From Dehalococcoidia bacterium (lineage in GTDB: Bacteria > Chloroflexota > Dehalococcoidia > Bin125): a stretch of 64,000 bases of DNA. The number at the start of each line of letters is the position of its first letter. Positions within the stretch are counted from its first letter, which is position 1. The position numbers and the translations under genes were made by a program. Where the stretch lies: positions 13,081-77,080 of the forward strand of contig OZ253504.1 in assembly GCA_965262235.1 (NCBI GenBank). Reading direction: 5' to 3'. Below the pieces are notes generated by a model. It had not been told where the DNA came from and made no database searches. It worked only from the letters and a program-made list of their open reading frames with translations. Shown here in pieces: positions 11,787 to 38,947 of this stretch.

Positions 11787-14111
<2,325 letters not shown>

Positions 14112-17763: not shown

Positions 17764-18536
17764 TGCGTCACGATCCCAACCGCGTCGGACATGCTGCCAG
17801 TCAGATCGCGCCAGTGGTCATCATGCACCTCATCGGTTTAGCCGGCGCCGACGATCACGGATAACGTGAGGACGCCGAAGTTCGATCCAGGATCGGGTGT
17901 CGAGCGGGATCGAGTGGCCTTGCACCAAGCGGGTTCCCGGCATTAGGCAGGCCGACGACGAAACCAGCTCAGCGGCGCTGTCGAAAATCCTCGGGGACCG
18001 GACGGCCTCGGGATCTTCGCAACTCATGGCTGCCAGACCGTCCCCTGGCGCGTCTTGCCGCGCCACGACTCGACGGAGGTCACGAAACGCGCAACGTCAG
18101 GAACTGCGTATTCGACCGTCGATTCAGCCAGTCCGCTGAGTCTTCGAGTGGCGGCACGACGCTCGATGGTTTGAAAGGAACCGAATGACCGCTTGGTCAC
18201 CAGTCCGAACATGGGCTTGGCAAATCCCGAGTTGATCTGGCATACCGCAATCTGCTCCACGTATTCACTGACCACGCGGTGAGTGTCCAGCGTCAGGACA
18301 TCGTGGCAATGATCTCGGTACGGCGCCGCATTGAGCATCCGCATGAGGCGATCCTGCGAGAGCCACAGGAACACCTTGCGATTGAGAAACCCATACCACT
18401 GCGTGGTAGACAGGTTGGTCAGGGCGGCTTCCAAGTCGCTCGGCGGCATCGATTTCTGATCGCGGAGGGGATTATAACCCGCAGTTGACAATAGGCGGGA
18501 CTTTCGGTAGCCCGTGATCACACAGGAGAGACCGAA

Positions 18537-19499
18537 ATGGCAACCGCGAAGCAAGCCCCAGGGCGTTCAGACCGCACCGGACTGACCCTGCCGCAACTGT
18601 TCAAGATGTTTCCCGACGACGCCGCTGCTGAGCGCTGGTTCGAGCAGCTGATGTGGCGTGAGCAAGGCCCTATTTGCCCCGATTGCCAGTCTCAGAATCA
18701 CGCGGTCGTGGACGACGCTCACAAGTCAATGCCCTACCACTGCCGCGAATGCCGCTCCTACTACTCAGTTAAGAAGGGAACCGTCATGCACAGTTCCCAA
18801 CTCGGCTACCAGACGTGGGCGATTGCGCTCTACCAGATCATCACCGGACTCAAGGGCGTCTCGGCGATGAAACTGCATCGCCATCTGGGAATCAGCTACA
18901 AGACGGCATGGCACCTGCTGCATCGAATCCGCCAGGCGCTCGAATCGGGCGATCTGGCGATGTTTGACGGCGATGTCGAGGTAGACGAAACCTACGTCGG
19001 CGGTCGTGAAGCCAACAAGCACCAGAGCAAGCGACTCAAGCAAGGTGGCGGAACCTACGGCAAGGCCGCCGTCGCAGGCGCGAAGGATCGCAAGTCGGGC
19101 AAAGTTCACGCAAACGTCGTCAAGTCGGTCGTCAAGGCCACCGACAAGCTGACCTTGCACGGATTCGTGCACGACACCGTTGCCCCAGGCGCCCGCCTGT
19201 TCACAGACGAATGGCCGGCCTACAGGGGTGTCAGGATGCGCCACGCTGCGGTCAAGCACTCGGCAGGCGAGTACGTGGTCGGCGACGCTCACACACAGGG
19301 CATTGAGTCGTTCTGGTCGATGCTCAAGCGCGGGCTGAACGGCGTCTACCACCACGTCAGCGTGAAGCATCTTGACCACTACGTGGGAGAGTTCGCAGGC
19401 CGCCATAACCTGCGCGAATTCGACACTGAGGAACAGATGGCTCTTGTGGCCCGTGGGATGCAGGGCAAGCGCCTGCGCTACAGCGACTTGACCGCCTGA
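18537..19499 (+). CDS. IS1595-family transposase (N-terminal zinc ribbon plus DDE domain)
   Basis: 'CPDCQSQNHAV...YHCRECRSYYS' zinc ribbon and 'VEVDETYVGG' with a DDE core, typical of ISXO2-like/IS1595 transposases. Confidence 0.85.
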   Translation: MATAKQAPGRSDRTGLTLPQLFKMFPDDAAAERWFEQLMWREQGPICPDCQSQNHAVVDDAHKSMPYHCRECRSYYSVKKGTVMHSSQLGYQTWAIALYQIITGLKGVSAMKLHRHLGISYKTAWHLLHRIRQALESGDLAMFDGDVEVDETYVGGREANKHQSKRLKQGGGTYGKAAVAGAKDRKSGKVHANVVKSVVKATDKLTLHGFVHDTVAPGARLFTDEWPAYRGVRMRHAAVKHSAGEYVVGDAHTQGIESFWSMLKRGLNGVYHHVSVKHLDHYVGEFAGRHNLREFDTEEQMALVARGMQGKRLRYSDLTA

Positions 19500-19686
19500 G
19501 GCTTCTCGCCCTTGTTGCCGAGCATCGCTTTCAGCACACGCTTGGGCGCGTCGGGAATCCTCAAGTCCTTTGGCTCAGGCATCGGGACGGACTCTCGGTT
19601 GGCGGCGGATTTCCTTGCAATGCACCACTGTTCGCGTGTTGTCCAGTCGTGGCTAGAATGAGAATCGGCGGGGCAGCCTGGACGCT

Positions 19687-20136
19687 GTGTACCCGCCGAC
19701 TCAAGGCAAATCGCCTATCGTGAATGTATCGCGAGGGGCTGGTCGGGATGTTGATTTGCCCAGCCTTGCAACCATTGTTGAGCGAATCTGGGGCGCAATT
19801 CGGGATCGGACTCCATTCGGAGGCAAGATCGTCAAAGTTGCTCCCATGGCGTTGCTGTTTGTGGCTACCCATTTGGGGCACGTCGCAGCCCGTGAGATTC
19901 ACGAAGGGCACACCGTGCACGAAGCGCTGATTGCCGTTCCCGCCGTCCTTGCCTTTGTTGTTGTCATGTATTGGCTATATCGTCTCGGGCCGGTTGAGCC
20001 GGTAGAGAAAGAGCCAAGTCTGGCTGAGGCGTTTGCGGCGCTTCCGGCCGCAACTGCCGATGCCGTTGATCAGGTGATCGTGCGACGATTGGGACACCTG
20101 ATTGAAGATCTTCAGCCGGAGGAACCTGAACGCTAA
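19687..20136 (+). CDS. IS passenger ORF, small two-helix membrane protein
   Basis: 149-aa ORF lying entirely between the transposase gene and IRR. Contains two hydrophobic helices. Confidence 0.35.
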   Translation: MYPPTQGKSPIVNVSRGAGRDVDLPSLATIVERIWGAIRDRTPFGGKIVKVAPMALLFVATHLGHVAAREIHEGHTVHEALIAVPAVLAFVVVMYWLYRLGPVEPVEKEPSLAEAFAALPAATADAVDQVIVRRLGHLIEDLQPEEPER

Positions 20137-20703
20137 GCTGGCATCAATGTGCAACCAGATTACGTGGGTGCTATCCGATATAAGTCCCGCCTGTTGTCAA
20201 CTGCGGGTTATAATCCCCATCGCCGACCACAGCGCTGCCGTATGAGGGATGTTCGATCGGGATACTCTCCGGCCGCCACTGCGACTCAATGCTGGTTCGC
20301 GTCGCACCGTCGATTTCGAACAGGTCGAGCAACGCGGTCGTGCTGAGCAACCCGCGCTCGCGTATGCTCGGCCAGCTGCCGGACTCAGCCATGTGGTAGA
20401 GGGACGGGTACAGCGCTGCGAATCGCTCCAGCCGGGCGGGCGTCATCGATCCTGACTCCGATCGCTTGAGGAGAGGGGTCCGTTCGAGACGCCGTGCTCA
20501 CGAGGGTTGGATGTCGGAAAGGGCAGAATCCTCGCCGTTGGACAATACGGGCTCAGCGAGCGCTTCGGCCGGTGCGCAGACGAAGCAGTCACCGAAGTTG
20601 AGAGCGTTGCGGCCGAGTCGCTCACGGGAGGGATCGCCGGCTCGACGGAGAGGCGCGACGGCGTCGGCTAATCTCGGGGTCGGCGAGCCTGACCGAGGAT
20701 GGA

Positions 20704-22861: not shown

Positions 22862-23063
22862 CGCTCTGACGATTGCCAGGTGGAATCACGTCGGCGGACT
22901 CGATGTCGATCGACTCCGCTGGCCGAATCACACCACGTGACTACTGGACGCAGTCAGATCCTCTGCCGTGAAGTCACGCGCGGTGCGGCCTGGATCCACC
23001 GCGGAAGCCATCCGCGCTGGTATCCTCGGCGCAACCCACTGGCGACGGGAGGACCGAACGACG

Positions 23064-24197
23064 ATGACCACCGTGACGCCATCCCTCCACGGCGATGCGG
23101 AGATGGATGAACCCATCGACGATGAGGCGCTGAAAAGCGACGCCGACCAAGAAATCCCGGGCATCGAGCGATACGAAATCGGCTTCTACGGAACCGACTT
23201 TCCCGTCGATGCCCTATACAAGCGGTTGTCGACGAGCGAGGAAAACGCGGAGGGCGACATCTATATCCCCGACTTCCAACGAGGATACGTCTGGACGAAG
23301 AGACAGGCCGACAGATTTATCGAGTCCCTGCTCCTCGGGCTTCCAGTCCCTGGGATTTTCCTATCCACGGATCGTCGGACTAGTCGCCGTTTCGTAATTG
23401 ACGGCGGCCAGCGACTGCGAACGATAAAGGCGTTCATGGACGGCAAGTTCAGGGATTCAGACTACACTCTCGGAAAAGGGGTACACGAGGACTTTGAGGG
23501 CAAGCGCTATACCGATCTCACACCGAGCGATCGTCGTCGATTTGATGACGCGATCATTCACGCCACCATCGTCCGGCAAGACCTACCAGAGCGCGGCGAT
23601 CGCTCTCTCTTTTATTTATTTGAGAGGCTTAACACGGGTGGGACACCGGCAGCCGCACACGAAGTTCGACGAAGCCTCTGGGGCGGTTCGTTAAATGTGC
23701 TGATCACGAAGCTCGCAGATAACCGAAACTGGCGCACTGTTTACGGCCGTCCTTCACCTCGGCTCAAAGATCAAGAGCTCATACTCCGTTTCTTCGCTCT
23801 CTACGTAGACGAAAGCCGTTATGGGAACACCGATCAGCGTACGATGAAGGACTTCCTGTCGTCGTTCATGGCTCGGCACCGAGAAATTGCCGAAGATACA
23901 GCTAAGGGATGGTCGGACGCATTCGAAGAGATCATCAAGTTGATTGATGAAGCGTTCGGACACGAGGCGTTCCGACCGGAGGGTAGGCTGAACGCGGCGG
24001 TGTACGACGCCGTCATGGTTGGGCTGGCGCACGCCCGGGACGGGGAGGGGCTGCCCGAGCTGAACGCGCTTCGCTCGGTATATGGTGGACTCATCGCGAA
24101 CAAGGAATTCCATGCCGCGACCAGTGACCGGACCTCCCATCAACCGAATGTCCAGAAACGGCTTCAGCTCGCACGGGCTGCCTTCCGACCGCGGTGA
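23064..24197 (+). CDS. DUF262 (ParB/GmrSD N-terminal-like) domain protein
   Basis: 'FVIDGGQRLRTI' (DGQQR-like motif). Start set at the ATG at 23064, 10 nt after GGGAGGA. GC is lower than the flanks. No DUF1524/HNH half present. Confidence 0.75.
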   Translation: MTTVTPSLHGDAEMDEPIDDEALKSDADQEIPGIERYEIGFYGTDFPVDALYKRLSTSEENAEGDIYIPDFQRGYVWTKRQADRFIESLLLGLPVPGIFLSTDRRTSRRFVIDGGQRLRTIKAFMDGKFRDSDYTLGKGVHEDFEGKRYTDLTPSDRRRFDDAIIHATIVRQDLPERGDRSLFYLFERLNTGGTPAAAHEVRRSLWGGSLNVLITKLADNRNWRTVYGRPSPRLKDQELILRFFALYVDESRYGNTDQRTMKDFLSSFMARHREIAEDTAKGWSDAFEEIIKLIDEAFGHEAFRPEGRLNAAVYDAVMVGLAHARDGEGLPELNALRSVYGGLIANKEFHAATSDRTSHQPNVQKRLQLARAAFRPR

Positions 24198-25389: not shown

Positions 25390-26178
25390 TCAGGCTGGCG
25401 GTAGGGCAAGGAGCCTAGGCAAGAACGGAAGCGCCCTTGGGAACCGGGTCTCGAAGTACTTCTGGGCACGCTCGGGGAGCCACACTTCATTGAAGTACCT
25501 CCTGAACTCAGGAAGGAGGTCGATGGGGTAGAGCCTAGCTTCCACCGGTATCCTCGATTCGTCCGCGAACTCGTGCTGGTACGTGGGGAACTTGGATGGG
25601 TCGATGCCCTTGCGTCTCAGGAAGTCCGAGAACATACGACCGGCCGAGATGTCGGGCATCATCTTGTCGGGTGGGATGACCCCGGCGTCCTCAAGGGGCG
25701 CGAACAGGTTGAGGTAGATCTCATTGAGCATCGAGAAGTGCGTGTGGGGTATCTTGGCCCGGTTCTTCATGAACCGCTGTACATGGACGGGCATGTAGCC
25801 CTGAACCCGTCCCATCATCCAATCGCCAACCCACCGGCTCACCCTCACTGCAAACACAGGGGAGAGCCACTGCCCCAGATTGATCGCCACCTGAGGATGT
25901 ACCCATGTACCTTGGAGGCGGTTATCTCCGCCCTTGATAATCTGCACGAGTTCCGATGTGGGAATTCCCACATCGGACGAGAGCTCGTTCAGGAACTCCT
26001 TGGTTTCAGCGAGCCGATGGTAGTCACCAAAGCACTTTCCAACCTGCTTGCACAGGTCCGTGGCGTGGATGTAGCCGTCCTTCGCGCGCTGCGGGACGAC
26101 CTCTCCAGCGACGGGGTGTTCGATGAGGAGTTGGGGCTGCACGATGTCGAGCGCTCGGCTGGCGGGGCGCTGTTTCAT
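25390..26178 (-). CDS. KilA-N domain protein (phage-associated APSES-type DNA-binding domain)
   Basis: 'IEHPVAGEVVPQRAKDGYIHATDLCKQVGK...WLSPVFAVRVSRWV' matches KilA-N. Start reassigned to the ATG at 26178, which has a GGAGG 6 nt upstream; the ORF track extends it to 26373. Confidence 0.65.
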   Translation of the reverse strand: MKQRPASRALDIVQPQLLIEHPVAGEVVPQRAKDGYIHATDLCKQVGKCFGDYHRLAETKEFLNELSSDVGIPTSELVQIIKGGDNRLQGTWVHPQVAINLGQWLSPVFAVRVSRWVGDWMMGRVQGYMPVHVQRFMKNRAKIPHTHFSMLNEIYLNLFAPLEDAGVIPPDKMMPDISAGRMFSDFLRRKGIDPSKFPTYQHEFADESRIPVEARLYPIDLLPEFRRYFNEVWLPERAQKYFETRFPRALPFLPRLLALPPA

Positions 26179-26620
26179 GGTTTGCCTCCATGGCGATTCA
26201 GGAGTAGTACGCATCTCAGGCCCAGCATACACAGGGCGGTCGCCCAAGCCGGTCTCGACAACTAACCACAGGGAGCCGAGTGAACGCCCCCTCGTCTCTC
26301 GCCATCGAGGGGGGCAAACATCCTCAGCAGAGCCGGGCAGGACTATAGACCAGTGACCGGACTTGTGGCCCACGGGAGGTCAGTGATGGCGGAATCAGCG
26401 GCCAAGAATCGCAGTCCAAGGCGTCCGCCCTCGCGGGAGTGGCACCCAGACGCGACACCGAAGGAGGTGGCGCGGGCGATGTTCGGGGCGGTGGAGCCGC
26501 CGGACCCGAGCCGTCAGGGGCAGCGTCCGTAGCTCGGCAGGTCTACCTTATGATTCCCCTCGGGAGTTGACAGGGCGCCGTATCGGCTGCCGGAAATCGA
26601 TGGTGCAAGGGAGGCGACGC

Positions 26621-30398: not shown

Positions 30399-33300
30399 TC
30401 AGTTCGGGCTGCCGCCGGTGGGCGTCGTGATCGCTGTGAGATTGCGTTTCGCGACCAGCGACTGGCGAGCTGCCAGTCCCCCCGCGAATCGGTCGAGGAA
30501 GGGTTGGCTGAGGAAGTCGGGATGGTCGGGGAAGAATCCGGTCCAACCGTCCCTCGTGTAGTGGTAGAGCGCGTCGACGGAGAGACTGCGGGCGCACTCC
30601 GCCAGCCCATCGATGCTGCCGCCGGTGTAGATCACGGCGCTGAGCGGCGCCTCGGTGAGACCGGGGAGGCAGCGCGCGCTGCCCTCGGGGGCGCGTTTGG
30701 CGATCAGCGCCTCGCCAGGCGCCGGGCCGTCCGGGAACCGCTCGCGGAAGGGCTGGCTGAGGAAGGTGGCATATCCGGGGAAGAATCCGGTCCAGCCATC
30801 ATCAGTGCGGCTATAGAGCGTGTCGACGGAGAGATCGCGAGCGCAATCCTCGAGCTCAGCCAGGCTGCCGCCGATGTAGGTGACGAGACTGAGGTGCTCA
30901 TCGGTGAGACCCGAGAGGCAGTTCTCGCTGCCGGCGGTCGCGCGCCTGGCGATCAGCGCCTGGCCAGCCACCACACCATTCGCGAAGCGGTCGCGGAAGG
31001 GCTGACTGAGGAACGCGGGGTAGTCGGGGAAGAAGCCGGTCCAGCTGTTGTCTGTGTAGTTGTAGAGCGTGTCCACGGAAAGATCGCGAGCGCAATCCGC
31101 GAGGTCAGCCAGGCTGCCGCCGATGTAGGTGACGAGACTGAGGCCCACCTCGGTCAGACCGGCGAGGCAGTGCCGGAGCCATACCCGGTAGACGCGCTCG
31201 CGGCTGCCGTCCGGAGAGATCACGGTGACAGCGATTACCAGCCCGTCCGACACCGCCACCTGGTGACCGTTGTCGGGGTTGGCGTCAGCGTCGGCCGGCA
31301 CGATCGTGACCGTGGCCTCCTCCTGGATCCCCGTGGCCTCCAGCGTTGTCTCGGTCAGACCACTGCTGAGGATGGCGGCGTATGACTTCCGTGCTGGTGA
31401 GAACTGACCGAACGCGATCCCGCTGAGCGATAGCGTCTCGAGCCGCGCGTCGATCGCGTCGGGCATGTTGTAGGTGTAGACTCTGTCGTCCCCGTCGTCG
31501 ACGACGTAGATCACCCCGCCGTCGGACCAGATGCCGCGCGGGTCGCCGTTGCCGGCGCGCAGCAACTGCTGGAAGTCGAACTCCTCCGCCTCGATTCGAT
31601 CGAGCGTCTCGCCGTTGATGCGGTACGCGAAGATACGATTGGCGCCGTCATCGGAGACCCACAGTGTGACGCCGTCGGACCAGATGCCCCGCGGGTCGGC
31701 GTTGAAGTCGTCGAGTTCGTATTCGGTGATCAGTTCGCCAGTTTCGAGGTCGTAGGCAAAGATCGACTCTCTGCGGTTGTCGAGGACGTAGATCACCTCG
31801 CCGTCGGACCAGATGTCGCGCGGGTCACGGTTGTCCTCATGGAGGTCGATATCGAGCTCGGGCACGCGGTCGCCGGTGACGATGTCGTAGGCGAAGAGCA
31901 CGTCCTGGCCGCTGTCGGAGACCCACATTGTTTGGCCGTCGGACCAGATGCCATGGGAGAATCGGTTTCTCTGGTCGAGTTCGAACTCGAGCTCCTCCAC
32001 GCGCTCGCCGGTGTCGAGGTCGTAGACGAAGATATCGTCGGGGCCGGAGGTCGCGTTCTGGAGGACCCAGAGCATCGCTCCGTTGCCCCAGATTCCTGTG
32101 GGCTCGGTGTGGTCGCCGTGCAGTGAGTCGATGTCGCGGGTGACGTTCCACGTAAAATCGACGTCGGATGGGACCGGTTTGGGCGCTGGACCGCCGCCTC
32201 CGCCTCCGCCTCCTCCGCCTCCGCCTCCTCCGCCACCGCCGCCGCCGCCGCCGCCGCCGGTTCCGCCGGTTCCGTCCGGATCGGCGGGCTCGGTACGGAA
32301 GGTGATTCGTTCCACGCCGCGCGTGAATCCATCGTCGAGCGAGGCTTCGAGGATGTACTCCTGGTCGGGGATCAGGTTGGCGACGGTGATCTCGGCCGTG
32401 TGGTCAGTCGTTTCTCCCATCGCAGTCTTCATCTCCGTCGCCCCTCGGCCCACTGCCCCCTTGGTGGTCGTCCCCACTGCCTCGTCAGACACCGGGCCAT
32501 AGCGGAGGTGCACCGTCTCCTCTGCGGTACCGGGCTCACCGATCTTGACAATCGCCTTAGCGGACTCGTCGGTCACATCCTTGACCGTCACCTCGATCAC
32601 CTTCGGCGTGGAGAAGGTGGCCGCGACCGGGCTGGCGAAGTCGGAACTGAGCGACGCCTGTAGGTCATACGTCGTGCTGACCATGAAGGTCGTGATGTCG
32701 CGCGTTGCAGTTTCCGTACCACTGAGTTCCAGCGGTGGGTCGCTCCATGCGGCGGCGGCGTGCTCCCGATACCGCACGAAGACCGTTTGAACCTGACTCT
32801 CCGCGTCGAGGATGGTGACGGTGACGGTCGCCTTCACGGCGGCGCCGGACCCCGACTGCGTGATATCCGTCACGCTGACGTCGGTGAGCGTGGGATCGAA
32901 CGCCGAGGTGGAGAAGGTGTCCGACACGATCGGCGTCGCGTCGAACGGGGTGCTGAACGCCGCCGTCACCTCGTACTCGGTCGACGGAGACAGGCCGGAG
33001 AGGGTCAGCGTGTGTCTGGACGTGTCGGCGGCGAAGTCGACGGGCGCGCTCCATGAGCCGGACGGCGTGCCCGTCGTGCGATAGCCCACGTAGACGGTGC
33101 TGCCATCCGGGTCATCGACCGTGACCGTAACCGTGGCCTCGGACGACGAATCGCTCGTGGCGGTGACGCTCACGATCTCCGGAACTGGTCCGTCGGTCGT
33201 GAAGGTGGTCTGTTGCGTGCCGATCGTAAACGTCGAGTCGAGCGACGCCTGCACGTCGTACTGGGTGCCGGCAGTCAGAGACGTGAGCTCGATCGTTGCG

Positions 33301-36300
33301 GTGTCTGAGTCGTTTGGGTCGGTATCGGCCTTCAGGTCCGCTGTGCTCCAGGCGCCCGGTGTCTCGCCGGCAGTGCGGTATCGCAAGTGGACCTCATGGG
33401 CGTCCCCACCCGCATTCGCGACAATGATCGTCGCCGTCGCGTCCTCTTGGTTGATGCCGGCCTCGTAGACGAAGACATCCTCGACAATTGGGTCATCGCC
33501 CAGGGTGGAGAAGACAGTCGGCCGTACTCCTGAGGTGAAGTCGCTGGCCAGCGTGGCTTCCACCTTGTACTGCGTCGCGGCGGTCAGACTCGAGAGCGGG
33601 ATCGTCGCGTCTGCGTCAGTGCTGGTCGCCGGCTCGGCGGTAGTCCAGCTTTCTGTCGCCGTGGGGGAGTAGCGCAGCCGGACCGTCTGCGAGTCGCCAT
33701 TCGGCGCGGCGATCTTGATCTTGGCGTTCGCGGTCGTCTTGGTCTTGTCGTCGCCAACGATGACCGAGTACACGCTGGGCGGCAGGGTTGTGAAGGTCGC
33801 CGACAGCGTGACATCGGTGTCGGGGAAGCTGGAATCGTATGAGGCCTGGACCTCGTATTCGCGGTCGGAGGTCAGACCACGCAGCGCGAACACCGCCTCT
33901 GTTTCCTCGGCGATGACGGCCTTTTTCGCCGTGCGCCAAGCGTCGGTTCCGGTGCGATATTGCAGGTGTACGAAGCTCCCGTTGGGCGCCGCAACGCCAA
34001 CAGTGACCGTCGCCGTGGTCTGCTTCTCGTCGCCGGCGCTGATCGATTCAACGCTCGGCGGAAGGGTCGTGAAGCTATCGGAGCGGGTCGCATCCGTGTC
34101 CGGGAACGTGTTGTCGTACGACGCTTCAACCTCGTAGCTCGTGTCCGACGTCAGATCGATCAGGGTGAACTCGTACGGGGACTCGCCGGAGTCGACCTCC
34201 GCCGATTCGGGCTTCCAGGTGTCGGTGGCGCCGGCGCGGTATTGGATGTAGACGCGGCTGCCGTTCGGTTCCGTGACATTCACGGTAATCTTCGCGCCGG
34301 TCTGGCTCTCGTCGCTCGCGACCACCGAATCCACGCTGGGTGGTTCGGTCGCGAACTTCCCGATAGTCGTCTCGTCGGTCGGGAAGGTGTCGTCGAGCGA
34401 GGCTTCAAGCTCGTAGTCGGTCCCGGAGGTGAGGTCGCTCAGTGAGAAGTCTGCGTGTGCGCTGGTTGTGTCCTCCGGCTCGGTTGCCTCCCAGGCCATC
34501 TCGCCCTTGAACCGATAGCGAAGATGGACTTTCTTCGAGTCGCTGTTCGGCGCGCTGATGATGGCCCTGATGGTGGCCGTGGTCTGGGTCTTCTCGATCG
34601 CGCTGACGGACTCGATCGCCGGTGGCAGCGTCGTGAAGCTGGCCGTCTTGGTTCGGGTCGTCGGGAAGCTGCTGTCGAACGACGCCTCCACGGTGTACTC
34701 GCGGTCCGCTGTGAGCCCGGAGAGCAGGAAGTCCACCGTCAACACGCCGACCTCCACCGCAAGCGAGGTCGTCTCCCAGTTCCCGCTGCTCGCCGTCTCC
34801 CGATAACGCAGGTTGACGAGGCCGCCATTGGCCTGGCTGACGGTGACCGTCGCCGTCGCTTCGGTCTGGCTGATCGAGGCCTCGGCCACTTCGACCGACT
34901 CGACGCCAGGAGGTGAGGACCAGCCCGAATACTGGCGGTTGTTGTTCAGGGGGTACGCAAGCAGACTGTCTCTGGTCGAGGCCGAGCCGGTGTTGGAGCT
35001 GACCCAGACGATGTCGCCGTCGGACCAGAAGCCGTTGATTGTGCCATGCCCGGAAGGCAAGGTGATGTCGTGGACGGGGATGTGGTGGGCGTTGGCCAGC
35101 CCACCCGACAGATCAAGCGCAAACAGTTTCTTCGTCGAGCATTGCGTCGCCAGGTACAGCAGGCTCCGCGATGCATCGTGCCAGATGCCTGCGACCTGAT
35201 CATGCTCACACACTGAATCCGGAACGACGATATCCTTGCTGTAGTCCCGCTGGCCGTAGGCGGCATCATATGCAAACAACGTGTCGCGTCCCGACGCGGC
35301 GGCCCAGAATGTCGAGCCGTCGCCGAAGAATGCGTTGGCCTCGGGAATCTGTACACGGTCCACCCCGGGCGGATGGTAATCGGACGCACGCATGTCGCCG
35401 TTCGCCTGCACAAGATCGCTTGAGAGGAATACACCGTCTGATTCCCGGTATGGAACGAACGCGACTTCCTCGGAAGTATTGATCGATTCCAGGTAGTTCG
35501 CGGTCACCGTCCAAAGGCGCGTCTCGTCGCCCCACAGGCCGCCGTCCACATCCGCGTAGTCAGCCGGCGGGACACTGGTGGAGTCACTGTGCGGCGTGAT
35601 GTCATCGTCGGCTTCTGCCGCGCCGGTCGCGAGGTCGTATGCGTAGAGCTTGCTGTCCGATGCGTGCGCGAGCCAGATCGTGTCGCCGTCCGACCAGACG
35701 CCGTGAGCCGAATTCTCAACGATCGTGCCGGCGGTCAGCTCGATATCTCGCAGCGCCGCGCAGCGATCGGTGGCGTAGTAGACGGCGCGCACTCGGTAGC
35801 GGTACGACGCTTGGGGGTCGACGCTGTCATCGAGGTAGCTGGCCGAATCCGCGTCGAGGCAAGTCAGGAAGGCGAAAGCGCCGTCGTCGTCGGCCCGCTC
35901 GATCTCGTACTGATAGACATCTTCGCGCAGGCCGGGAGTGATTGGCGTGGGCGGTGGACTCCAACTGAGCCGCGGGCCGTCGGTCTCGTCGGCGCGAGCG
36001 AAGTTCGTCGGACCTGCACCGCCGTCGGCCACTGTGACCATGACGTCGGGCAGTGTGAGAACGTTATATTCGATCGCGCTGCCGCCGATCGTGTGGGACA
36101 GCTGGAAGCCGATGTTTTGCGTGACGGAGTCGGCGGGTGCGCTGACGATCACGTACTGCGGCGTCTCCCAGTTCGACGGCGTGAAGCTGAGCCTGGAGGC
36201 GCTCGTGGTCAAGCCCGGGGTCACGTCCGGGGCAGTTGAGATGGAGATGGTGACAGAACCTGAGGGCTCTGAGATAATCGCAGCCTTGTAGTAGTCCCGG

Positions 36301-37715
36301 CCACCCTCAGGAACGGTGATGACAGTTGGGTTGATGATTCCACCGGTGTCATCGTCGATCACGGTCGTCACCACGTCGACGGATGACCCCACGTATATGC
36401 TGTCGGTACCGCCGGCGCCGGAGATTCGGATCGTCACCTCGTCGTTGGCGCCGTCGTCGTCATCGCCAGCGGTGACGGTCACCGTGTGACCTGAAGCCCA
36501 GTTCGACTCGGTGAACTGGAACCGCGCCGGAACGGCCGTCAGATCGCCGCCGACGTCGACGCGGAACTCGACCTCGGGCGTGTCGCTCCCTCTGGCAGTG
36601 GGCGGGGTGCACAGCGCGACCGTGATCGTGACTGTCCCACTCTCGGGAATGTAGAGACGCCGGGGGTCGACTCTTACGCATCCCCCAGCCCCTTCGTCGT
36701 CCGCGATCTCAACGTTCACGCGGGGTCCTGCGAGGCCGTTGTAGTTGGCGTCGCTGCTGGAACTGGCGAAGCTAACACTGATTGGGCCATCCACGTCCCA
36801 TCTACCACGCTCCGCGTTATCCGTGCCTGAGACAGTGAACGGTTGCGGCGTGCCCCAATCGGTGCTGGTAAACGTCAATGACGATGGATCGACCATGACG
36901 TTTGCGTTGCCGTTGCGGGTCGCGGTCACCGTCACATCCGCCGTCGGTGGAGCTTCCAGCATCACCTGAATAGTCCCCGAGTCGCCCTCGGCGATCCGCA
37001 TCCGAGCCGGCGACGCGCTGATCCCCGCGTCGTCGTCGTCTTCGATCACCACCTGCACGTCCCGCACATCCAGGCTCAGGTACTCCGACGCGCTGCCTGT
37101 CTTGACTTCGTGAGTGATGATGGCCCTGCCGTCGTCCGAGTCCGCGTCATCCAGGCCGGTGACGGTGATGATCTGCGGGCTGCGCCAGGCCGTGGGCGTG
37201 AACTTGACCTCCGTTGGGTAGGCCGTGACGCCCGCACCGGCGCTGATCACGACGGTTACGTTGGCGCTCGGCGCGCTTCGCAGGTAAATCCAATACCTGC
37301 CGCTGCCGCCCTCGTCGATCTTCAGATAGGTCGGGGTGACGAGCACCTCAGGCTGCAGCGTCTGAGTGGGTGCGAAGCCACCGCTTGTGCTGGTATCGGC
37401 AACAGACGAGAAGACAGCGCGTAGCTGCCCTGACGTGGGTACTCTGCTCACGCCGTTGGAGGCGCGGTCTGGGTCCAGCGGCGAATTCGTAGCTGTCGCG
37501 GTCCCTGGATGTGCAACGGCGTGGTCGATCGAGAGTGAGCCGGCGTCTAGGGACGCCGTGTCGAGGTCTTGGCCATGGGCGGACCAGGAGCTGGACAACA
37601 AGGCGCCAAGCAGGGCAACTCCTGCGACTCCGAGGAGCAGCAACGTGTGGCGACTGCGGACAATGCCGACGACCGCGGCGCATACAATCCGCGTGCGCCG
37701 CGTGAGTTCGCGCAT
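30399..37715 (-). CDS. Giant secreted multi-repeat surface protein (about 2440 aa): beta-sandwich repeats, beta-propeller blades, about 9 FN3-like repeats, a poly-Gly hinge and three C-terminal ~83-aa modules
   Basis: Signal peptide 'TLLLLGVAGVALLGALLSSSWSAHG'. Repeated 'HLRYR...W...TSDREYEVQASYDSSFP' units. 'DPRGIWSDG..LWVSD' blades. 'CLxGLTE...WTGFFPD' occurs three times. The authentic start is probably the ATG at 37715 (MRELTRR), because the first 5 codons of the tracked ORF lie inside the IS5 inverted repeat. Confidence 0.7.
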   Translation of the reverse strand: MRELTRRTRIVCAAVVGIVRSRHTLLLLGVAGVALLGALLSSSWSAHGQDLDTASLDAGSLSIDHAVAHPGTATATNSPLDPDRASNGVSRVPTSGQLRAVFSSVADTSTSGGFAPTQTLQPEVLVTPTYLKIDEGGSGRYWIYLRSAPSANVTVVISAGAGVTAYPTEVKFTPTAWRSPQIITVTGLDDADSDDGRAIITHEVKTGSASEYLSLDVRDVQVVIEDDDDAGISASPARMRIAEGDSGTIQVMLEAPPTADVTVTATRNGNANVMVDPSSLTFTSTDWGTPQPFTVSGTDNAERGRWDVDGPISVSFASSSSDANYNGLAGPRVNVEIADDEGAGGCVRVDPRRLYIPESGTVTITVALCTPPTARGSDTPEVEFRVDVGGDLTAVPARFQFTESNWASGHTVTVTAGDDDDGANDEVTIRISGAGGTDSIYVGSSVDVVTTVIDDDTGGIINPTVITVPEGGRDYYKAAIISEPSGSVTISISTAPDVTPGLTTSASRLSFTPSNWETPQYVIVSAPADSVTQNIGFQLSHTIGGSAIEYNVLTLPDVMVTVADGGAGPTNFARADETDGPRLSWSPPPTPITPGLREDVYQYEIERADDDGAFAFLTCLDADSASYLDDSVDPQASYRYRVRAVYYATDRCAALRDIELTAGTIVENSAHGVWSDGDTIWLAHASDSKLYAYDLATGAAEADDDITPHSDSTSVPPADYADVDGGLWGDETRLWTVTANYLESINTSEEVAFVPYRESDGVFLSSDLVQANGDMRASDYHPPGVDRVQIPEANAFFGDGSTFWAAASGRDTLFAYDAAYGQRDYSKDIVVPDSVCEHDQVAGIWHDASRSLLYLATQCSTKKLFALDLSGGLANAHHIPVHDITLPSGHGTINGFWSDGDIVWVSSNTGSASTRDSLLAYPLNNNRQYSGWSSPPGVESVEVAEASISQTEATATVTVSQANGGLVNLRYRETASSGNWETTSLAVEVGVLTVDFLLSGLTADREYTVEASFDSSFPTTRTKTASFTTLPPAIESVSAIEKTQTTATIRAIISAPNSDSKKVHLRYRFKGEMAWEATEPEDTTSAHADFSLSDLTSGTDYELEASLDDTFPTDETTIGKFATEPPSVDSVVASDESQTGAKITVNVTEPNGSRVYIQYRAGATDTWKPESAEVDSGESPYEFTLIDLTSDTSYEVEASYDNTFPDTDATRSDSFTTLPPSVESISAGDEKQTTATVTVGVAAPNGSFVHLQYRTGTDAWRTAKKAVIAEETEAVFALRGLTSDREYEVQASYDSSFPDTDVTLSATFTTLPPSVYSVIVGDDKTKTTANAKIKIAAPNGDSQTVRLRYSPTATESWTTAEPATSTDADATIPLSSLTAATQYKVEATLASDFTSGVRPTVFSTLGDDPIVEDVFVYEAGINQEDATATIIVANAGGDAHEVHLRYRTAGETPGAWSTADLKADTDPNDSDTATIELTSLTAGTQYDVQASLDSTFTIGTQQTTFTTDGPVPEIVSVTATSDSSSEATVTVTVDDPDGSTVYVGYRTTGTPSGSWSAPVDFAADTSRHTLTLSGLSPSTEYEVTAAFSTPFDATPIVSDTFSTSAFDPTLTDVSVTDITQSGSGAAVKATVTVTILDAESQVQTVFVRYREHAAAAWSDPPLELSGTETATRDITTFMVSTTYDLQASLSSDFASPVAATFSTPKVIEVTVKDVTDESAKAIVKIGEPGTAEETVHLRYGPVSDEAVGTTTKGAVGRGATEMKTAMGETTDHTAEITVANLIPDQEYILEASLDDGFTRGVERITFRTEPADPDGTGGTGGGGGGGGGGGGGGGGGGGGGGGPAPKPVPSDVDFTWNVTRDIDSLHGDHTEPTGIWGNGAMLWVLQNATSGPDDIFVYDLDTGERVEELEFELDQRNRFSHGIWSDGQTMWVSDSGQDVLFAYDIVTGDRVPELDIDLHEDNRDPRDIWSDGEVIYVLDNRRESIFAYDLETGELITEYELDDFNADPRGIWSDGVTLWVSDDGANRIFAYRINGETLDRIEAEEFDFQQLLRAGNGDPRGIWSDGGVIYVVDDGDDRVYTYNMPDAIDARLETLSLSGIAFGQFSPARKSYAAILSSGLTETTLEATGIQEEATVTIVPADADANPDNGHQVAVSDGLVIAVTVISPDGSRERVYRVWLRHCLAGLTEVGLSLVTYIGGSLADLADCARDLSVDTLYNYTDNSWTGFFPDYPAFLSQPFRDRFANGVVAGQALIARRATAGSENCLSGLTDEHLSLVTYIGGSLAELEDCARDLSVDTLYSRTDDGWTGFFPGYATFLSQPFRERFPDGPAPGEALIAKRAPEGSARCLPGLTEAPLSAVIYTGGSIDGLAECARSLSVDALYHYTRDGWTGFFPDHPDFLSQPFLDRFAGGLAARQSLVAKRNLTAITTPTGGSPN
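30402..31169. repeat. Three tandem ~249-270-bp coding repeats (C-terminal triplicated module of the giant protein)
   Basis: Protein units CLAGLTE.., CLSGLTD.., CLPGLTE.. have near-identical DNA blocks, for example 'cggtccagc..atc..gtgtagt..tagagcgtgtcgacggagag' recurring. Confidence 0.8.
32192..32270. repeat. Poly-(GGN)/(ccgcctcc)n coding tract for about 26 consecutive Gly
   Basis: Direct reading of 'ccgcctccgcctccgcctcctccgcc...gccgccgccgccgcc'. Confidence 0.8.
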
Positions 37716-37760
37716 GAATCGCCTGCTTCCGTGCACGTGCTCACTCCGATGATCACTTAG

Positions 37761-38947
37761 GAACGCTCTGAACAAGGCAGGGATGTGGGCTGGTTACGAT
37801 CGGGGCAGCGACCGCCGAAGGGAGCGCCTCGATGCAGGAACCGACGTTTGGCAGCCTGGAGTTTGCGCACAAGAAGCGGAAGACCCGGCGTGAGCGGTTC
37901 CTGGAGCGGCTCGAGTCGCTGGTGCCCTGGGCCGCGTTGGAGGCGCGCGTCGAACCGGTCTATCCCAAGCCGGGGCGCGGACGGCGGCCCTACCGCCTGG
38001 CCGTGATGCTGCGCGTTCACTGCGTGCAGCTCTGCTACAACCTCAGCGACCCGGCGCTCGAGGACTTGCTCTACGAGGCCGAGTCGGTACGCCGCTTCTG
38101 CGGACTGAACCTCAGTGGGCCGATCCCTGACGAGTCGACGATCCTGCACTTTCGTCATCTCTTGGAGCGGCATCAGCTGGGCGAGGCGCTGCTGCAGACG
38201 ATCAACGCGCACCTGGCAGGCCAGGGTCTGCGGCTGCAGGCCGGCACGATCGTGGACGCGAGCATCATCGCGGCGCCGTCCTCGACCAAGAACCAGCGTC
38301 GCCAGCGCGACCCGGAGATGCATCAGACCAAGAAGGGCAACCAGTGGCACTTCGGGATGAAGCTGCATATCGGGGTGGACGCGGACCTGGGCCTGACCCA
38401 CAGCCTGAGCACGACCGCGGCGAACAGCGCCGATGTGACCGAGGCGCATCGGCTCTTGCACGGCGGCGAACGAGCGGCCTGGGGCGACGCCGGCTACCAG
38501 GGCGCGGAGCGGCGTCCCGAACTGGCCGACTCGGCGGTCGAGTGGCGGGTCGCGATGCGTCCCGGCCGCAGGCGCATGCTGCCGCCGGACAGCCCACTCG
38601 CCCAGCGCGAGCGTGAGCGGGCTTCGCTGCGGGCCAAGGTCGAGCATCCCTTCCTCTACATCAAACGGCGCTTCGGCTACGACAAAGTGCGCTATCGCGG
38701 CCTGGCCAAGAATCACCAGCGGCTGGCGCTGTTGCTCGGCTTCGCCAATCTGTTGATCGCCGAGTCGCAACTGGCCTGAACCGGGGCGGACTGCGCCCCT
38801 CGCCCGGCTCGGCCCCACACATGCGGCCAACCGGACCCTCAGCACCGCCCCAACCCATCGCCCCGCTCGCCCACTCACCGCAGTGACCCAACCGCCCGCG
38901 CCCAGTCAGCACGAAGTCCGCTCAATCGCCTCTTGTTCAGAGCGTTC
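37761..38947. mobile_element. IS5-family insertion sequence (1187 bp) with imperfect terminal inverted repeats and a 4-bp TTAG target duplication
   Basis: Left end 'gaacgctctgaacaagg' against the reverse complement of the right end 'gaacgctctgaacaaga'. TTAG at 37757-37760 and 38948-38951, consistent with the YTAR target of IS5. Confidence 0.75.
37832..38779 (+). CDS. IS5-family DDE transposase
   Basis: 315 aa with 'HFGMKLHIGVDADLGLTHSLSTTAANSADV...GDAGYQG', the DDE motif region of IS5/ISL2-like transposases. Confidence 0.85.
   Translation: MQEPTFGSLEFAHKKRKTRRERFLERLESLVPWAALEARVEPVYPKPGRGRRPYRLAVMLRVHCVQLCYNLSDPALEDLLYEAESVRRFCGLNLSGPIPDESTILHFRHLLERHQLGEALLQTINAHLAGQGLRLQAGTIVDASIIAAPSSTKNQRRQRDPEMHQTKKGNQWHFGMKLHIGVDADLGLTHSLSTTAANSADVTEAHRLLHGGERAAWGDAGYQGAERRPELADSAVEWRVAMRPGRRRMLPPDSPLAQRERERASLRAKVEHPFLYIKRRFGYDKVRYRGLAKNHQRLALLLGFANLLIAESQLA

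What the first reader, a model, noticed from the sequence alone, without database searches (positions are those of the whole stretch)
18024..20446. IS1595-family element with a passenger ORF inserted in frame into a DarT-like (DUF4433) gene that lacks a DarG partner
The IS has 36/37-matching 37-bp inverted repeats and 8-bp flanking direct repeats (atcgcgga/atcgccga). When the IS and one TSD copy are removed, the flanking ORF halves join in frame into a 220-aa protein starting MTPARLERFAALYPSLYHMAESGSWPSIRERGLLS. This resembles the DarT N-terminal motif LYHFTH..NLPSIL..GLL of ssDNA thymidine ADP-ribosyltransferase toxins, but with the second His replaced. No macrodomain (DarG-like) gene is adjacent. 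One reading is that an orphan toxin-like gene was inactivated by IS insertion. The IS also carries a 149-aa two-helix membrane passenger ORF (19687-20136), which is uncommon cargo for this family.
Basis: partly seen in the sequence, partly recalled or inferred. Interest (0 to 1): 0.55.

Follow-up and report, generated by a model that had tools for sequence, protein, structure and literature searches.

The report
Cargo-carrying IS1595 element disrupting an ART-like gene
A 1.75-kb mobile element that carries its own small membrane-protein gene has jumped into and split a gene for a predicted ADP-ribosyltransferase; this is an ordinary gene knock-out, but the broken gene's family and the element's swappable cargo are mildly interesting.

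Summary
A 1,752-bp IS1595-family element (18467-20218) has 36/37-matching 37-bp inverted repeats and 8-bp target duplications matching 7/8. It splits a 220-aa gene on the minus strand, and removing it restores an intact ORF.

The gene is not DarT/DUF4433. It is Pfam DUF7002 (E 2.4e-53). No DUF4433 hit appears at any threshold, and the profile-profile match to DarT is not significant. A pLDDT-96 model does find only ADP-ribosyltransferases, with DarT1 on top. DUF7002 also matches the published 'Lmac_3114' DarT-like family in motifs (H / FFW / E) and in its adenylosuccinate-synthetase neighbour.

In at least 34 of 80 other genomes, DUF7002 ends an operon. That operon encodes an M78 peptidase fused to an ALC1/SCO6735-type macrodomain, and a kinase fused to a PurA-like domain.

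The window's lineage lacks these partners. Intact partner-less orthologues sit in the same synteny under purifying selection (omega 0.25). 'Orphan' is therefore ancestral, and selection for toxin inactivation is not needed to explain the insertion.

Passenger genes are a hallmark of IS1595 'transporter IS', not an oddity. The passenger is real (dN/dS 0.17). Sister elements carry other cargo: a Panacea antitoxin plus a membrane protein, or a methylase-HNH protein.

Verdict: ordinary insertional pseudogenisation, and a new member of known kinds.

The parts
18024..18466 (-). 3' part of the disrupted DUF7002 gene (codons 74/75-220 plus stop). It carries predicted ART motifs II (F106-L-W108) and III (E188). 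The source genome annotates a 141-aa fragment here (P0043).
18459..18466 (.). Left copy of the 8-bp target-site duplication, ATCGCGGA. It keeps the ancestral CGC codon for the invariant R75.
18467..20218 (+). 1,752-bp IS1595-family transporter IS (tIS), made of transposase plus one passenger gene. GC is 59% against 65% for the window.
18467..18503 (+). Left terminal inverted repeat (37 bp), GGGGATTATAACCCGCAGTTGACAATAGGCGGGACTT.
   Evidence: the outer 23-24 nt are identical in sister elements L121 and L090
18537..19499 (+). Intact 320-aa IS1595-family DDE transposase with an N-terminal zinc ribbon.
19687..20136 (+). Passenger gene for a small two-TM protein: 149 aa from GTG 19687, or more likely 126 aa from TTG 19756, where its only homologue starts. 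No family assignment.
   Evidence: omega 0.17 in frame; the homologue is cargo of another tIS
20182..20218 (-). Right terminal inverted repeat (37 bp, 36/37 to the left one).
20219..20226 (.). Right copy of the target-site duplication, ATCGCCGA. It has one substitution after insertion, which would give G75.
20219..20446 (-). 5' part of the disrupted DUF7002 gene (codons 1-76) with predicted ART motif I (Y17-H18). It runs on into the IS as a 91-aa ORF (20171-20446), which the source annotates as P0395.

Best explanation
An IS1595-family transporter IS transposed into codons 74-76 of a chromosomal 220-aa DUF7002 gene and duplicated the 8-bp target ATCGCGGA. The IS has 37-bp inverted repeats, an intact Zn-ribbon/DDE transposase and one small two-TM passenger gene. 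It lies in the opposite orientation to the target gene. The insertion separates predicted NAD-binding motif I (H18) from motifs II (F106-x-W108) and III (E188), so the allele is null. All of this is shown directly by the sequence.

The target is the orthologue of intact genes at the same chromosomal position in related Dehalococcoidia. That position lies between a PGA_cap gene and a divergent CoA-transferase III / amidohydrolase-2 pair.

DUF7002 is inferred to be an H-Y-E-clade ADP-ribosyltransferase, distantly DarT/Tpt1-like, and most probably acts on nucleic acid. In many other lineages it is the last gene of an operon. That operon encodes a P-loop-kinase/adenylosuccinate-synthetase-like protein and an IrrE/CapP-type M78 peptidase fused to an ALC1/SCO6735-type macrodomain. 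This macrodomain subclass is shown to remove thymidine-linked ADP-ribose from DNA.

The window's lineage carries the gene solo. The insertion is most simply a neutral or mildly deleterious knock-out that is recent relative to the divergence from the nearest intact orthologue (dS 0.37), not a selected detoxification.
For: Anatomy of the insertion:
- The inverted repeats, target duplication and in-frame reconstruction are confirmed.
- The transposase matches IS1595 models.

Family of the target gene:
- DUF7002 scores E 2.4e-53 over the full length of the model.
- There are 743 homologues, mostly 220 aa, and 1,856 clusters at 50% identity.

Synteny with intact orthologues:
- L001 (83% identity) has the same Abhydrolase, PGA_cap, DUF7002, CoA_transf_3 and Amidohydro_2 neighbourhood.
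- L002 and 13 GTDB loci have the same upstream genes.

Little decay since insertion:
- omega is 0.25 and dS is 0.37 against L001.
- Only 1 of 61 columns conserved at >=90% deviates (P79S).
- There is one mismatch in the target duplication and one in the inverted repeats.

Evidence for an ART fold:
- The AF2 model has pLDDT 96 and pTM 0.90.
- The top 36 Foldseek PDB hits are all ARTs or Tpt1: DarT1 8baq at E 2e-4 and probability 1.0, Mtb DarT, cholera, LT and pertussis toxins, Thermus DarT, Rhs TreX and Tpt1/KptA.
- H18, F106, W108 and E188 are invariant or nearly so, and each lies on a beta-strand, in that order along the sequence.
- The published Lmac_3114 family has motifs Hxx/FFW/xxE, is a 'distant homologue of DarT', and has an adenylosuccinate synthetase neighbour in 60% of cases (PMC12522546).
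- Plasmid homologues abut genes annotated as adenylosuccinate synthetase.

Evidence for the operon:
- At least 34 of 80 loci have M78-macro, then kinase-PurA, then DUF7002.
- The macrodomain hits PDB 2afc/2fg1 at 3e-50, SCO6735 at 4.5e-45, TARG1 at 3e-11, and Pfam Macro in 23 of 33 members.
- SCO6735 removes thymidine-linked ADP-ribose from DNA (PMC9411070).
Against: - The DUF7002 profile against the DarT profile is not significant, and no PDB sequence hit was found.
- No ART activity has been shown for any DUF7002 protein. The Lmac_3114 paper reports an atypical NAD docking pose.
- The identity of DUF7002 with Lmac_3114 rests on shared motifs, neighbours and taxa. It was not checked by direct sequence comparison.
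- The rest of the 3.43-Mb source chromosome could not be searched. A distal macrodomain partner, a second intact copy or further IS copies therefore cannot be excluded.
Confidence: 0.8

Rival explanations
1. One reading: the solo DUF7002 is a self-toxic orphan ART toxin, and the IS insertion was selected because it removed the toxicity.
For: DUF7002 has an ART fold closest to DarT toxins. In other lineages it is paired with a macrodomain protein that could act as a reversing or antitoxin partner. No such partner is found in the window.
Against: Intact solo orthologues at 65-83% identity persist at the same locus in at least 15 related genomes without any adjacent partner. They evolve under purifying selection (omega 0.25). 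That is not expected of an unneutralised lethal toxin. The window copy had kept 60 of 61 conserved positions up to the insertion.
Confidence: 0.12
2. DUF7002 has an ART-like fold but is not a nucleic-acid ADP-ribosyltransferase. It could be a Tpt1-like 2'-phosphotransferase, a small-molecule or protein ART, or an NAD/nucleotide-binding regulator working with the PurA-like kinase.
For: Tpt1/KptA and protein-targeting toxins are among the fold hits with similar scores. The authors of the Lmac_3114 family could not place it cleanly between the HYE and HHh clades and saw atypical NAD docking. The constant partner is a nucleotide-metabolism-like enzyme.
Against: The best hits are DarT1 and DarT. 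A conserved Glu lies in motif III. The associated macrodomain belongs to the SCO6735/Bt_1257 subclass, whose shown activity is removal of thymidine-linked ADP-ribose from DNA, although it also acts on proteins.
Confidence: 0.2
3. The 149-aa 'passenger' is a chance ORF in non-coding IS sequence and not a gene.
For: GC3 is only 0.55, against 0.77 for the transposase and 0.87-0.89 for host genes. No family hit was found. Neither tested version of this ORF (149 aa from GTG 19687, 126 aa from TTG 19756) is in the protein collection, so it was probably not called in the source annotation. Only one homologue exists among 5.8 billion clusters.
Against: Against its homologue P0121, dN/dS is 0.17 in this frame but 1.4 and 2.0 in the shifted frames, over 78 codons with dS of about 1.2. 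The homologue lies inside another IS1595-type element, 5.9 kb long, with perfect 8-bp target duplications.
Confidence: 0.07

Closest known systems
DarT (DUF4433, PF14487), the ssDNA ADP-ribosyltransferase toxin of the DarTG systems
   Same: DarT is the best solved-structure match to the ART fold (8baq, 7yk3, 7omy). Both share an N-terminal beta1 'YH' motif followed by a G-L-L turn. Both have a conserved Glu on a late strand in an 'AE-hydrophobic-x-V' context (A1 and A2 consensus). Both are about 210-220 aa. Other family members are associated with an ALC1/TARG1/DarG-class macrodomain.
   Different: No Pfam DUF4433 hit exists for any member. The profile-profile comparison is not significant. 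DarT's second His (H16) is replaced by Glu21, and motif II is FFW rather than DarT's Y/F-rich strand. In family members that have the macrodomain partner, it is fused to an M78 peptidase rather than to DarG's C-terminal domain. A kinase-PurA-like gene is the constant neighbour. The window's copy and its orthologues have no partner at all.
Lmac_3114 ART-like family (BMC Genomics 2025, PMC12522546)
   Same: The motif set is the same: Hxx / FFW / xxE. Both are described as distantly DarT- and Tpt1-like. Both have an adenylosuccinate-synthetase (+AAA) neighbour. The taxa overlap (Rhizobium, Burkholderia, Acidobacteria, PVC).
   Different: Identity with DUF7002 was not checked by direct sequence comparison. 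The paper reports the family in bacteria only and does not mention the M78-macrodomain partner. Here homologues are also seen in archaea (Nitrosopumilus, Bathyarchaeia, Thermoplasmata), along with a solo, syntenic Dehalococcoidia subfamily.
IS1595-family transporter IS (tIS), probably the ISNwi1-like group
   Same: It has a single Zn-ribbon plus DDE_Tnp_IS1595 transposase, terminal inverted repeats and an 8-bp target duplication. The passenger gene sits between the transposase and the right inverted repeat. The GGGGATTAT ends fit the ISNwi1 consensus 'ggnnatTAT', and the 1.75-kb size fits the passenger-carrying class. Both of those points are recalled from ISfinder tables and were not verified here.
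   Different: The transposase is at most 41% identical to anything in the plasmid collection. The cargo is a two-TM protein with no family. Sister elements (transposase DNA 87-88% identical; protein 89% in L090, at least 90% in L121; the outer 23-24 nt of the ends identical or nearly so) carry a SocA/Panacea antitoxin plus a TM protein (L090) or an N6_N4-methylase-HNH protein (L121) in the same slot.

Membership tests
DarT / DUF4433 (PF14487) | Significant match to the DUF4433 profile | tested here: not met
   No hit at E<=1 for the reconstructed protein. No hit at E<=10 for any of 88 family members. hhalign of DUF7002 against 45 DarT sequences gives E 0.25, probability 0.2%, 23 columns.
DarT / DUF4433 (PF14487) | ART fold with DarT-type active-site residues (H13, R51, E160 in Thermus DarT) | tested here: inconclusive
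   The fold match is met: DarT1 is the top hit at E 2e-4, but with TM of about 0.37. H18 and E188 are conserved and plausibly equivalent. An equivalent of R51 cannot be assigned without a structural alignment.
DarT / DUF4433 (PF14487) | Adjacent DarG (macrodomain) or NADAR antitoxin gene | tested here: not met
   No ALC1-like macrodomain is found in the window's six-frame translation. The neighbours are PGA_cap and CoA_transf_3. The orthologues are also solo. NADAR was not specifically searched.
DarT / DUF4433 (PF14487) | Sequence-specific ADP-ribosylation of thymidine or guanosine in ssDNA | not testable with these tools
   A biochemical assay is needed.
DUF7002 (PF22531) | Match above the Pfam gathering threshold over the full model | tested here: met
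   181.1 bits against a cut-off of 27, profile positions 1-195 of 195. All family-invariant residues are present in the reconstruction.
Lmac_3114 ART-like family | Motifs Hxx / FFW / xxE and an adenylosuccinate-synthetase neighbour | tested here: inconclusive
   The motifs are met: H18; TFFW in the consensus and FLW in the window; E188. The neighbour criterion is met for the family but not for the window's gene. No direct comparison with the Lmac_3114 sequence was possible.
IS1595 family insertion sequence | DDE_Tnp_IS1595 transposase with N-terminal zinc ribbon | tested here: met
   PF12762 at 1.1e-36, PF12760 at 2.8e-5, NF033547 at 5.6e-56.
IS1595 family insertion sequence | Terminal inverted repeats and an 8-bp target-site duplication | tested here: met
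   The 37-bp inverted repeats match 36/37 and the target duplication matches 7/8. Sister element L121 has a perfect 8/8 duplication with the same ends. The more distant 5.9-kb IS1595-type element in L008, with similar ends (GGGAATTATCACC), also has a perfect 8/8 duplication.
Transporter IS (tIS) | Non-transposition passenger gene(s) inside the inverted repeats of an otherwise IS-like element | tested here: met
   The passenger at 19687/19756-20136 is under purifying selection. The definition and the restriction to the IS1595 and IS66 families come from bioRxiv 10.1101/2021.05.26.445724.
ISNwi1 subgroup of IS1595 | End consensus, catalytic-motif variant and ISfinder similarity | not testable with these tools
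   ISfinder is not available. The GGGGATTAT ends fit the remembered consensus only.

The most novel reading that the evidence does not exclude
DUF7002 may be the effector of an undescribed, horizontally mobile conflict system with three genes. The first is an IrrE/CapP-like M78 peptidase fused to an SCO6735-type ADP-ribosyl-DNA hydrolase macrodomain. The second is a P-loop kinase fused to an adenylosuccinate-synthetase-like enzyme. The third is the DarT-like ART itself. The system is found in defence islands of bacteria and archaea. The Dehalococcoidia solo copy broken here would then be a domesticated remnant. Separately, this IS1595 lineage may act as a shuttle that swaps small conflict modules (a Panacea TA pair, a methylase-HNH protein, a two-TM protein) in a fixed cargo slot.
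Probability: 0.4. Interest if true: 0.6.

Novelty: new member of a known kind. Interest (0 to 1): 0.3.

Why it matters
The event in the window is a routine insertional pseudogenisation and changes little. Three points from the follow-up could matter more.

First, DUF7002 is a family of about 1,900 clusters with no experimental data. Fold, motifs and a tightly linked DNA-ADP-ribose-hydrolase-type macrodomain all tie it to reversible nucleic-acid ADP-ribosylation. That widens the DarTG-like repertoire to archaea and adds an unexplained purine-enzyme partner.

Second, a solo ART-like gene is conserved without a neutraliser. This suggests either that the enzyme is not toxic on its own or that an unknown control exists.

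Third, a single IS1595 lineage with near-identical ends carries at least three unrelated conflict-type cargoes. This is a compact example of how transporter IS spread small defence or TA modules.

Tried and rejected
- **DUF4433 membership:** rejected.
- **PDB sequence search with the DUF7002 profile:** only a spurious hit at E 0.89.
- **PADLOC:** no model for DUF7002.
- **Literature search for 'DUF7002':** no papers.
- **Locating the source genome by exact-protein look-up:** failed. IS copy number, paralogues and distal partners could therefore not be examined.
- **Exact inverted-repeat scan of JGI metagenomes:** no hits.
- **A 60-aa ORF overlapping the DUF7002 start by ATGA (20443-20625, minus strand), considered as a possible antitoxin:** rejected. 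It is not conserved beyond nucleotide-level similarity to L001, with 60% amino-acid identity against 76% nucleotide identity.
- **The 143-aa ORF downstream of the orthologues:** looks like an amidohydrolase or transposase remnant, not a partner.
- **The passenger compared with the TM protein of L090:** no similarity.
- **A spurious-passenger explanation:** rejected by dN/dS.
- **Two apparent 'middle gene' hits in the window:** these were antisense ORFs of the CoA-transferase.
Full report
**1. Observation.**

An element spans 18467-20218 (1,752 bp). Its 37-bp terminal inverted repeats match at 36 of 37 positions (GGGGATTATAACCCGCAGTTGACAA[T/C]AGGCGGGACTT). The 25-nt end occurs only at these two places in the window, against 0 expected by chance.

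The element is flanked by ATCGCGGA (18459-18466) and ATCGCCGA (20219-20226). Deleting the element plus either repeat copy fuses the two flanking minus-strand ORFs into one 220-aa ORF.

The element encodes an intact 320-aa transposase at 18537-19499. It matches Pfam DDE_Tnp_IS1595 (1e-36), the IS1595 zinc ribbon, and NCBIfam transpos_IS1595 (5.6e-56). Its relatives in the plasmid collection, at 41% identity or less, are annotated as IS1595-family transposases.

The family alignment shows that R75 and D76, the residues encoded by the duplicated target, are invariant. The left copy encodes R75 and the right copy would encode G75. The one mismatch is therefore a substitution in the right copy after insertion.

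**2. What the interrupted gene is.**

The reconstructed protein matches Pfam DUF7002 (PF22531) end to end, at E 2.4e-53 and 181 bits against a cut-off of 27. It does not match DUF4433/DarT. Three further tests agree:
- None of 88 aligned family members hits DUF4433 even at E<=10.
- A DUF7002 profile finds no PDB sequence.
- hhalign of the DUF7002 alignment against an alignment of 45 genuine DarT proteins aligns only 23 N-terminal columns, at E 0.25.

The 23 aligned columns are LYHMAEsGSW..GLL against IYHITHidNL..GGL. It is real but not statistically significant on its own.

**3. Fold.**

An AlphaFold2 model built from the 88-sequence alignment is very confident, with pLDDT 96 and pTM 0.90. Foldseek against the PDB returns only ADP-ribosyltransferase-superfamily proteins in the first 36 ranks:
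- E. coli DarT1 (8baq, E 2e-4, probability 1.0)
- M. tuberculosis DarT
- cholera, LT and pertussis toxin A subunits
- Thermus DarT
- Rhs TreX/TreTu
- Tpt1/KptA

TM-scores are low (0.36-0.39), so this is a distant ART-fold relationship. The viral library gives the same picture more weakly, with Tpt1-like, DarT and PARP hits.

H18, F106/W108 and E188 are invariant or nearly so, and each lies on a beta-strand (15-21, 104-108, 188-192), in that order along the sequence.

A 2025 survey describes an 'Lmac_3114' family as a distant DarT homologue of the HYE clade. It has motifs Hxx / FFW / xxE, a predicted DNA target, and an adenylosuccinate-synthetase (+AAA) gene in 60% of neighbourhoods (PMC12522546). 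DUF7002 has the same motifs and the same neighbour. It also occurs in the same proteobacterial taxa, for example on Rhizobium, Agrobacterium, Ralstonia and Burkholderia plasmids next to genes annotated 'adenylosuccinate synthetase'. I infer that the two are the same family. I could not compare the sequences directly.

**4. Genomic context elsewhere.**

I clustered ORFs from 80 GTDB-representative loci. At least 34 of them have a conserved three-gene operon:
- A protein of about 455 aa with an IrrE/CapP-type M78 metallopeptidase domain and a C-terminal macrodomain.
- A protein of about 535 aa with a P-loop kinase domain (AAA_18/AAA_33) and an adenylosuccinate-synthetase-like domain (PF00709, 2.6e-59).
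- DUF7002.

The loci span Dehalococcoidia, Acidobacteriota, Verrucomicrobiota, Planctomycetota, Alphaproteobacteria, Nitrosopumilus, Bathyarchaeia and Thermoplasmata.

The macrodomain assignment is strong. A profile of 33 partner proteins hits Bt_1257 (2afc/2fg1, 3e-50), SCO6735 (5e3b, 4.5e-45), the ALC1 macrodomain (3e-20) and TARG1 (3e-11). Pfam Macro is found in 23 of 33 members, and the PADLOC DarG model scores 4e-5.

SCO6735 is an ALC1-like macrodomain shown to remove DarT-made thymidine-linked ADP-ribose from DNA and to rescue cells from DarT (PMC9411070).

In several genomes the operon sits between Mrr and N6_N4-methylase genes on one side and a Kiwa system (KwaA/KwaB) on the other, or next to a type I HsdR gene. 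These are defence islands. PADLOC has no model for DUF7002.

This context is the best argument that DUF7002 proteins catalyse a reversible ADP-ribosylation, probably of nucleic acid.

**5. The window's own lineage.**

The closest intact homologues have no such partners. These are P0001 at 83% identity, P0004 at 71%, and 13 GTDB loci at 65-71%, all Dehalococcoidia or Chloroflexota MAGs. Instead they lie in the same chromosomal synteny as the window: Abhydrolase, PGA_cap, DUF7002, then a divergent CoA_transf_3 and Amidohydro_2 pair.

The window contains no M78, macrodomain or kinase-PurA gene. A 60-aa ORF overlaps the start codon but is not conserved as protein.

Against L001, the reconstructed gene shows dN/dS 0.25 with dS 0.37. 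It deviates from the family at only 1 of 61 highly conserved columns (P79S).

So the gene was a functional, vertically inherited, partner-less ART-like gene until the IS arrived. Little decay has accumulated since. 'Orphan' is ancestral for the lineage. A lethal unneutralised toxin would not be conserved this way. The adaptive 'toxin inactivation' reading is therefore possible but unnecessary, and I give it about 0.12.

The source annotation calls the two halves as separate proteins of 91 aa and 141 aa.

**6. The IS and its passenger.**

Passenger-carrying IS ('transporter IS', tIS) are described as restricted to the IS1595 and IS66 families (bioRxiv 10.1101/2021.05.26.445724). Cargo is therefore typical for this family, not unusual.

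On its face the passenger ORF is a weak gene candidate:
- GC3 is 0.55.
- It has no family hit.
- Neither version tested (from GTG 19687 or TTG 19756) is in the protein collection.
- Only one homologue exists among 5.8 billion clusters (P0121).

However, over the 78 aligned codons that cover both hydrophobic helices, dN/dS is 0.17 in this frame against 1.4 and 2.0 in the other frames. It is a real gene. It probably starts at TTG 19756, where the homologue starts.

The homologue itself lies inside a 5,924-bp element (L008:140-6063). That element has IS1595-like ends (GGGAATTATCACC...), 22-nt inverted repeats and a perfect 8-bp duplication AAAATCTT. It also contains a degenerate IS1595 transposase.

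Two closer sister elements have transposase DNA 87-88% identical to the window's (protein 89% for L090, at least 90% for L121). The outer 23-24 nt of their ends are identical (L121) or nearly identical (L090) to the window's. They carry different genes in the same slot, between the transposase stop codon and the last 24 nt or so of the right inverted repeat:
- L090 carries a SocA/Panacea-domain antitoxin (PF13274, 7e-18) with an overlapping 129-aa TM protein.
- L121 carries a 427-aa N6_N4-methylase-HNH protein, and the element has a perfect 8-bp duplication ACCCGAAT.

The lineage is thus a modular tIS with conflict-type cargo. The function of the two-TM passenger is unknown. A small membrane toxin or effector is a guess only; the PADLOC 2TM-effector hit at E 0.049 is not significant.

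**7. Verdict.**

- Right: it is an IS1595 element, the insertion can be cleanly reversed in silico, the target shows DarT-like chemistry at the level of fold, and no partner is adjacent.
- Wrong: the family is DUF7002, not DUF4433; cargo is not unusual for IS1595; and 'toxin' status is not shown.

The event is an ordinary insertional pseudogenisation. I rate novelty as a new member of known kinds and interest at about 0.3. The more novel material lies outside the window: the M78-macrodomain / kinase-PurA / DUF7002 operon and the cargo-swapping tIS lineage.

Noticed in passing
L003:2015-5642; L004-L006:2017-5672; at least 34 of loci L010-L089: A conserved three-gene operon occurs in bacteria and archaea, often in defence islands next to Kiwa, Mrr plus a methylase, or HsdR. 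Its genes are an IrrE/CapP-like M78 peptidase fused to an SCO6735/ALC1-type macrodomain, a P-loop kinase fused to an adenylosuccinate-synthetase-like domain, and DUF7002. PADLOC has no DUF7002 model, and the macrodomain partner is not mentioned in the Lmac_3114 paper.
   Followed up: partly
L090:3-1943, L121:3431-5823, L008:140-6063: Relatives of the window's IS carry different cargo between the transposase and the right end. L090 has a SocA/Panacea antitoxin plus a 129-aa TM protein. L121 has an N6_N4-methylase-HNH fusion and the target duplication ACCCGAAT. The 5.9-kb element in L008 has several ORFs, including the only homologue of the window's passenger, and the target duplication AAAATCTT.
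   Followed up: partly
window 22968-24197 (+) and 25390-26373 (-): A GmrSD_N (DUF262) protein and a KilA-N domain protein follow the CoA-transferase/amidohydrolase pair. The syntenic locus L001 has other genes at this position, so it looks like a small variable or mobile region next to the finding.
   Followed up: no
window 20578-20602: A 25-nt stretch (agacgaagcagtcaccgaagttgag) lies in the divergent intergenic region between DUF7002 and the CoA-transferase gene. It is 92-96% conserved in orthologous loci (L010, L016, L019) whose surrounding intergenic sequence has otherwise diverged. It may be a shared operator or promoter element.
   Followed up: no
window 18024-18554 (-): A 176-aa ORF starts at a TTG inside the left end of the IS and reads in frame into the 3' part of DUF7002. 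Read-out from the IS could in principle express a hybrid C-terminal fragment.
   Followed up: no
L001:6685-8326 compared with window 17764-18023: The closest orthologous locus has two extra genes between DUF7002 and PGA_cap that are absent from the window. One is a 143-aa ORF with DUF772/Amidohydro_3-remnant hits, and the other is a 340-aa ORF with no family.
   Followed up: no
window 30399-37775 (-): A very long ORF of 2,458 aa lies about 10 kb downstream of the finding. A 774-aa protein with SWM_repeat and cadherin domains lies at 11787-14111. Both are large surface-type proteins and neither was examined further.
   Followed up: no
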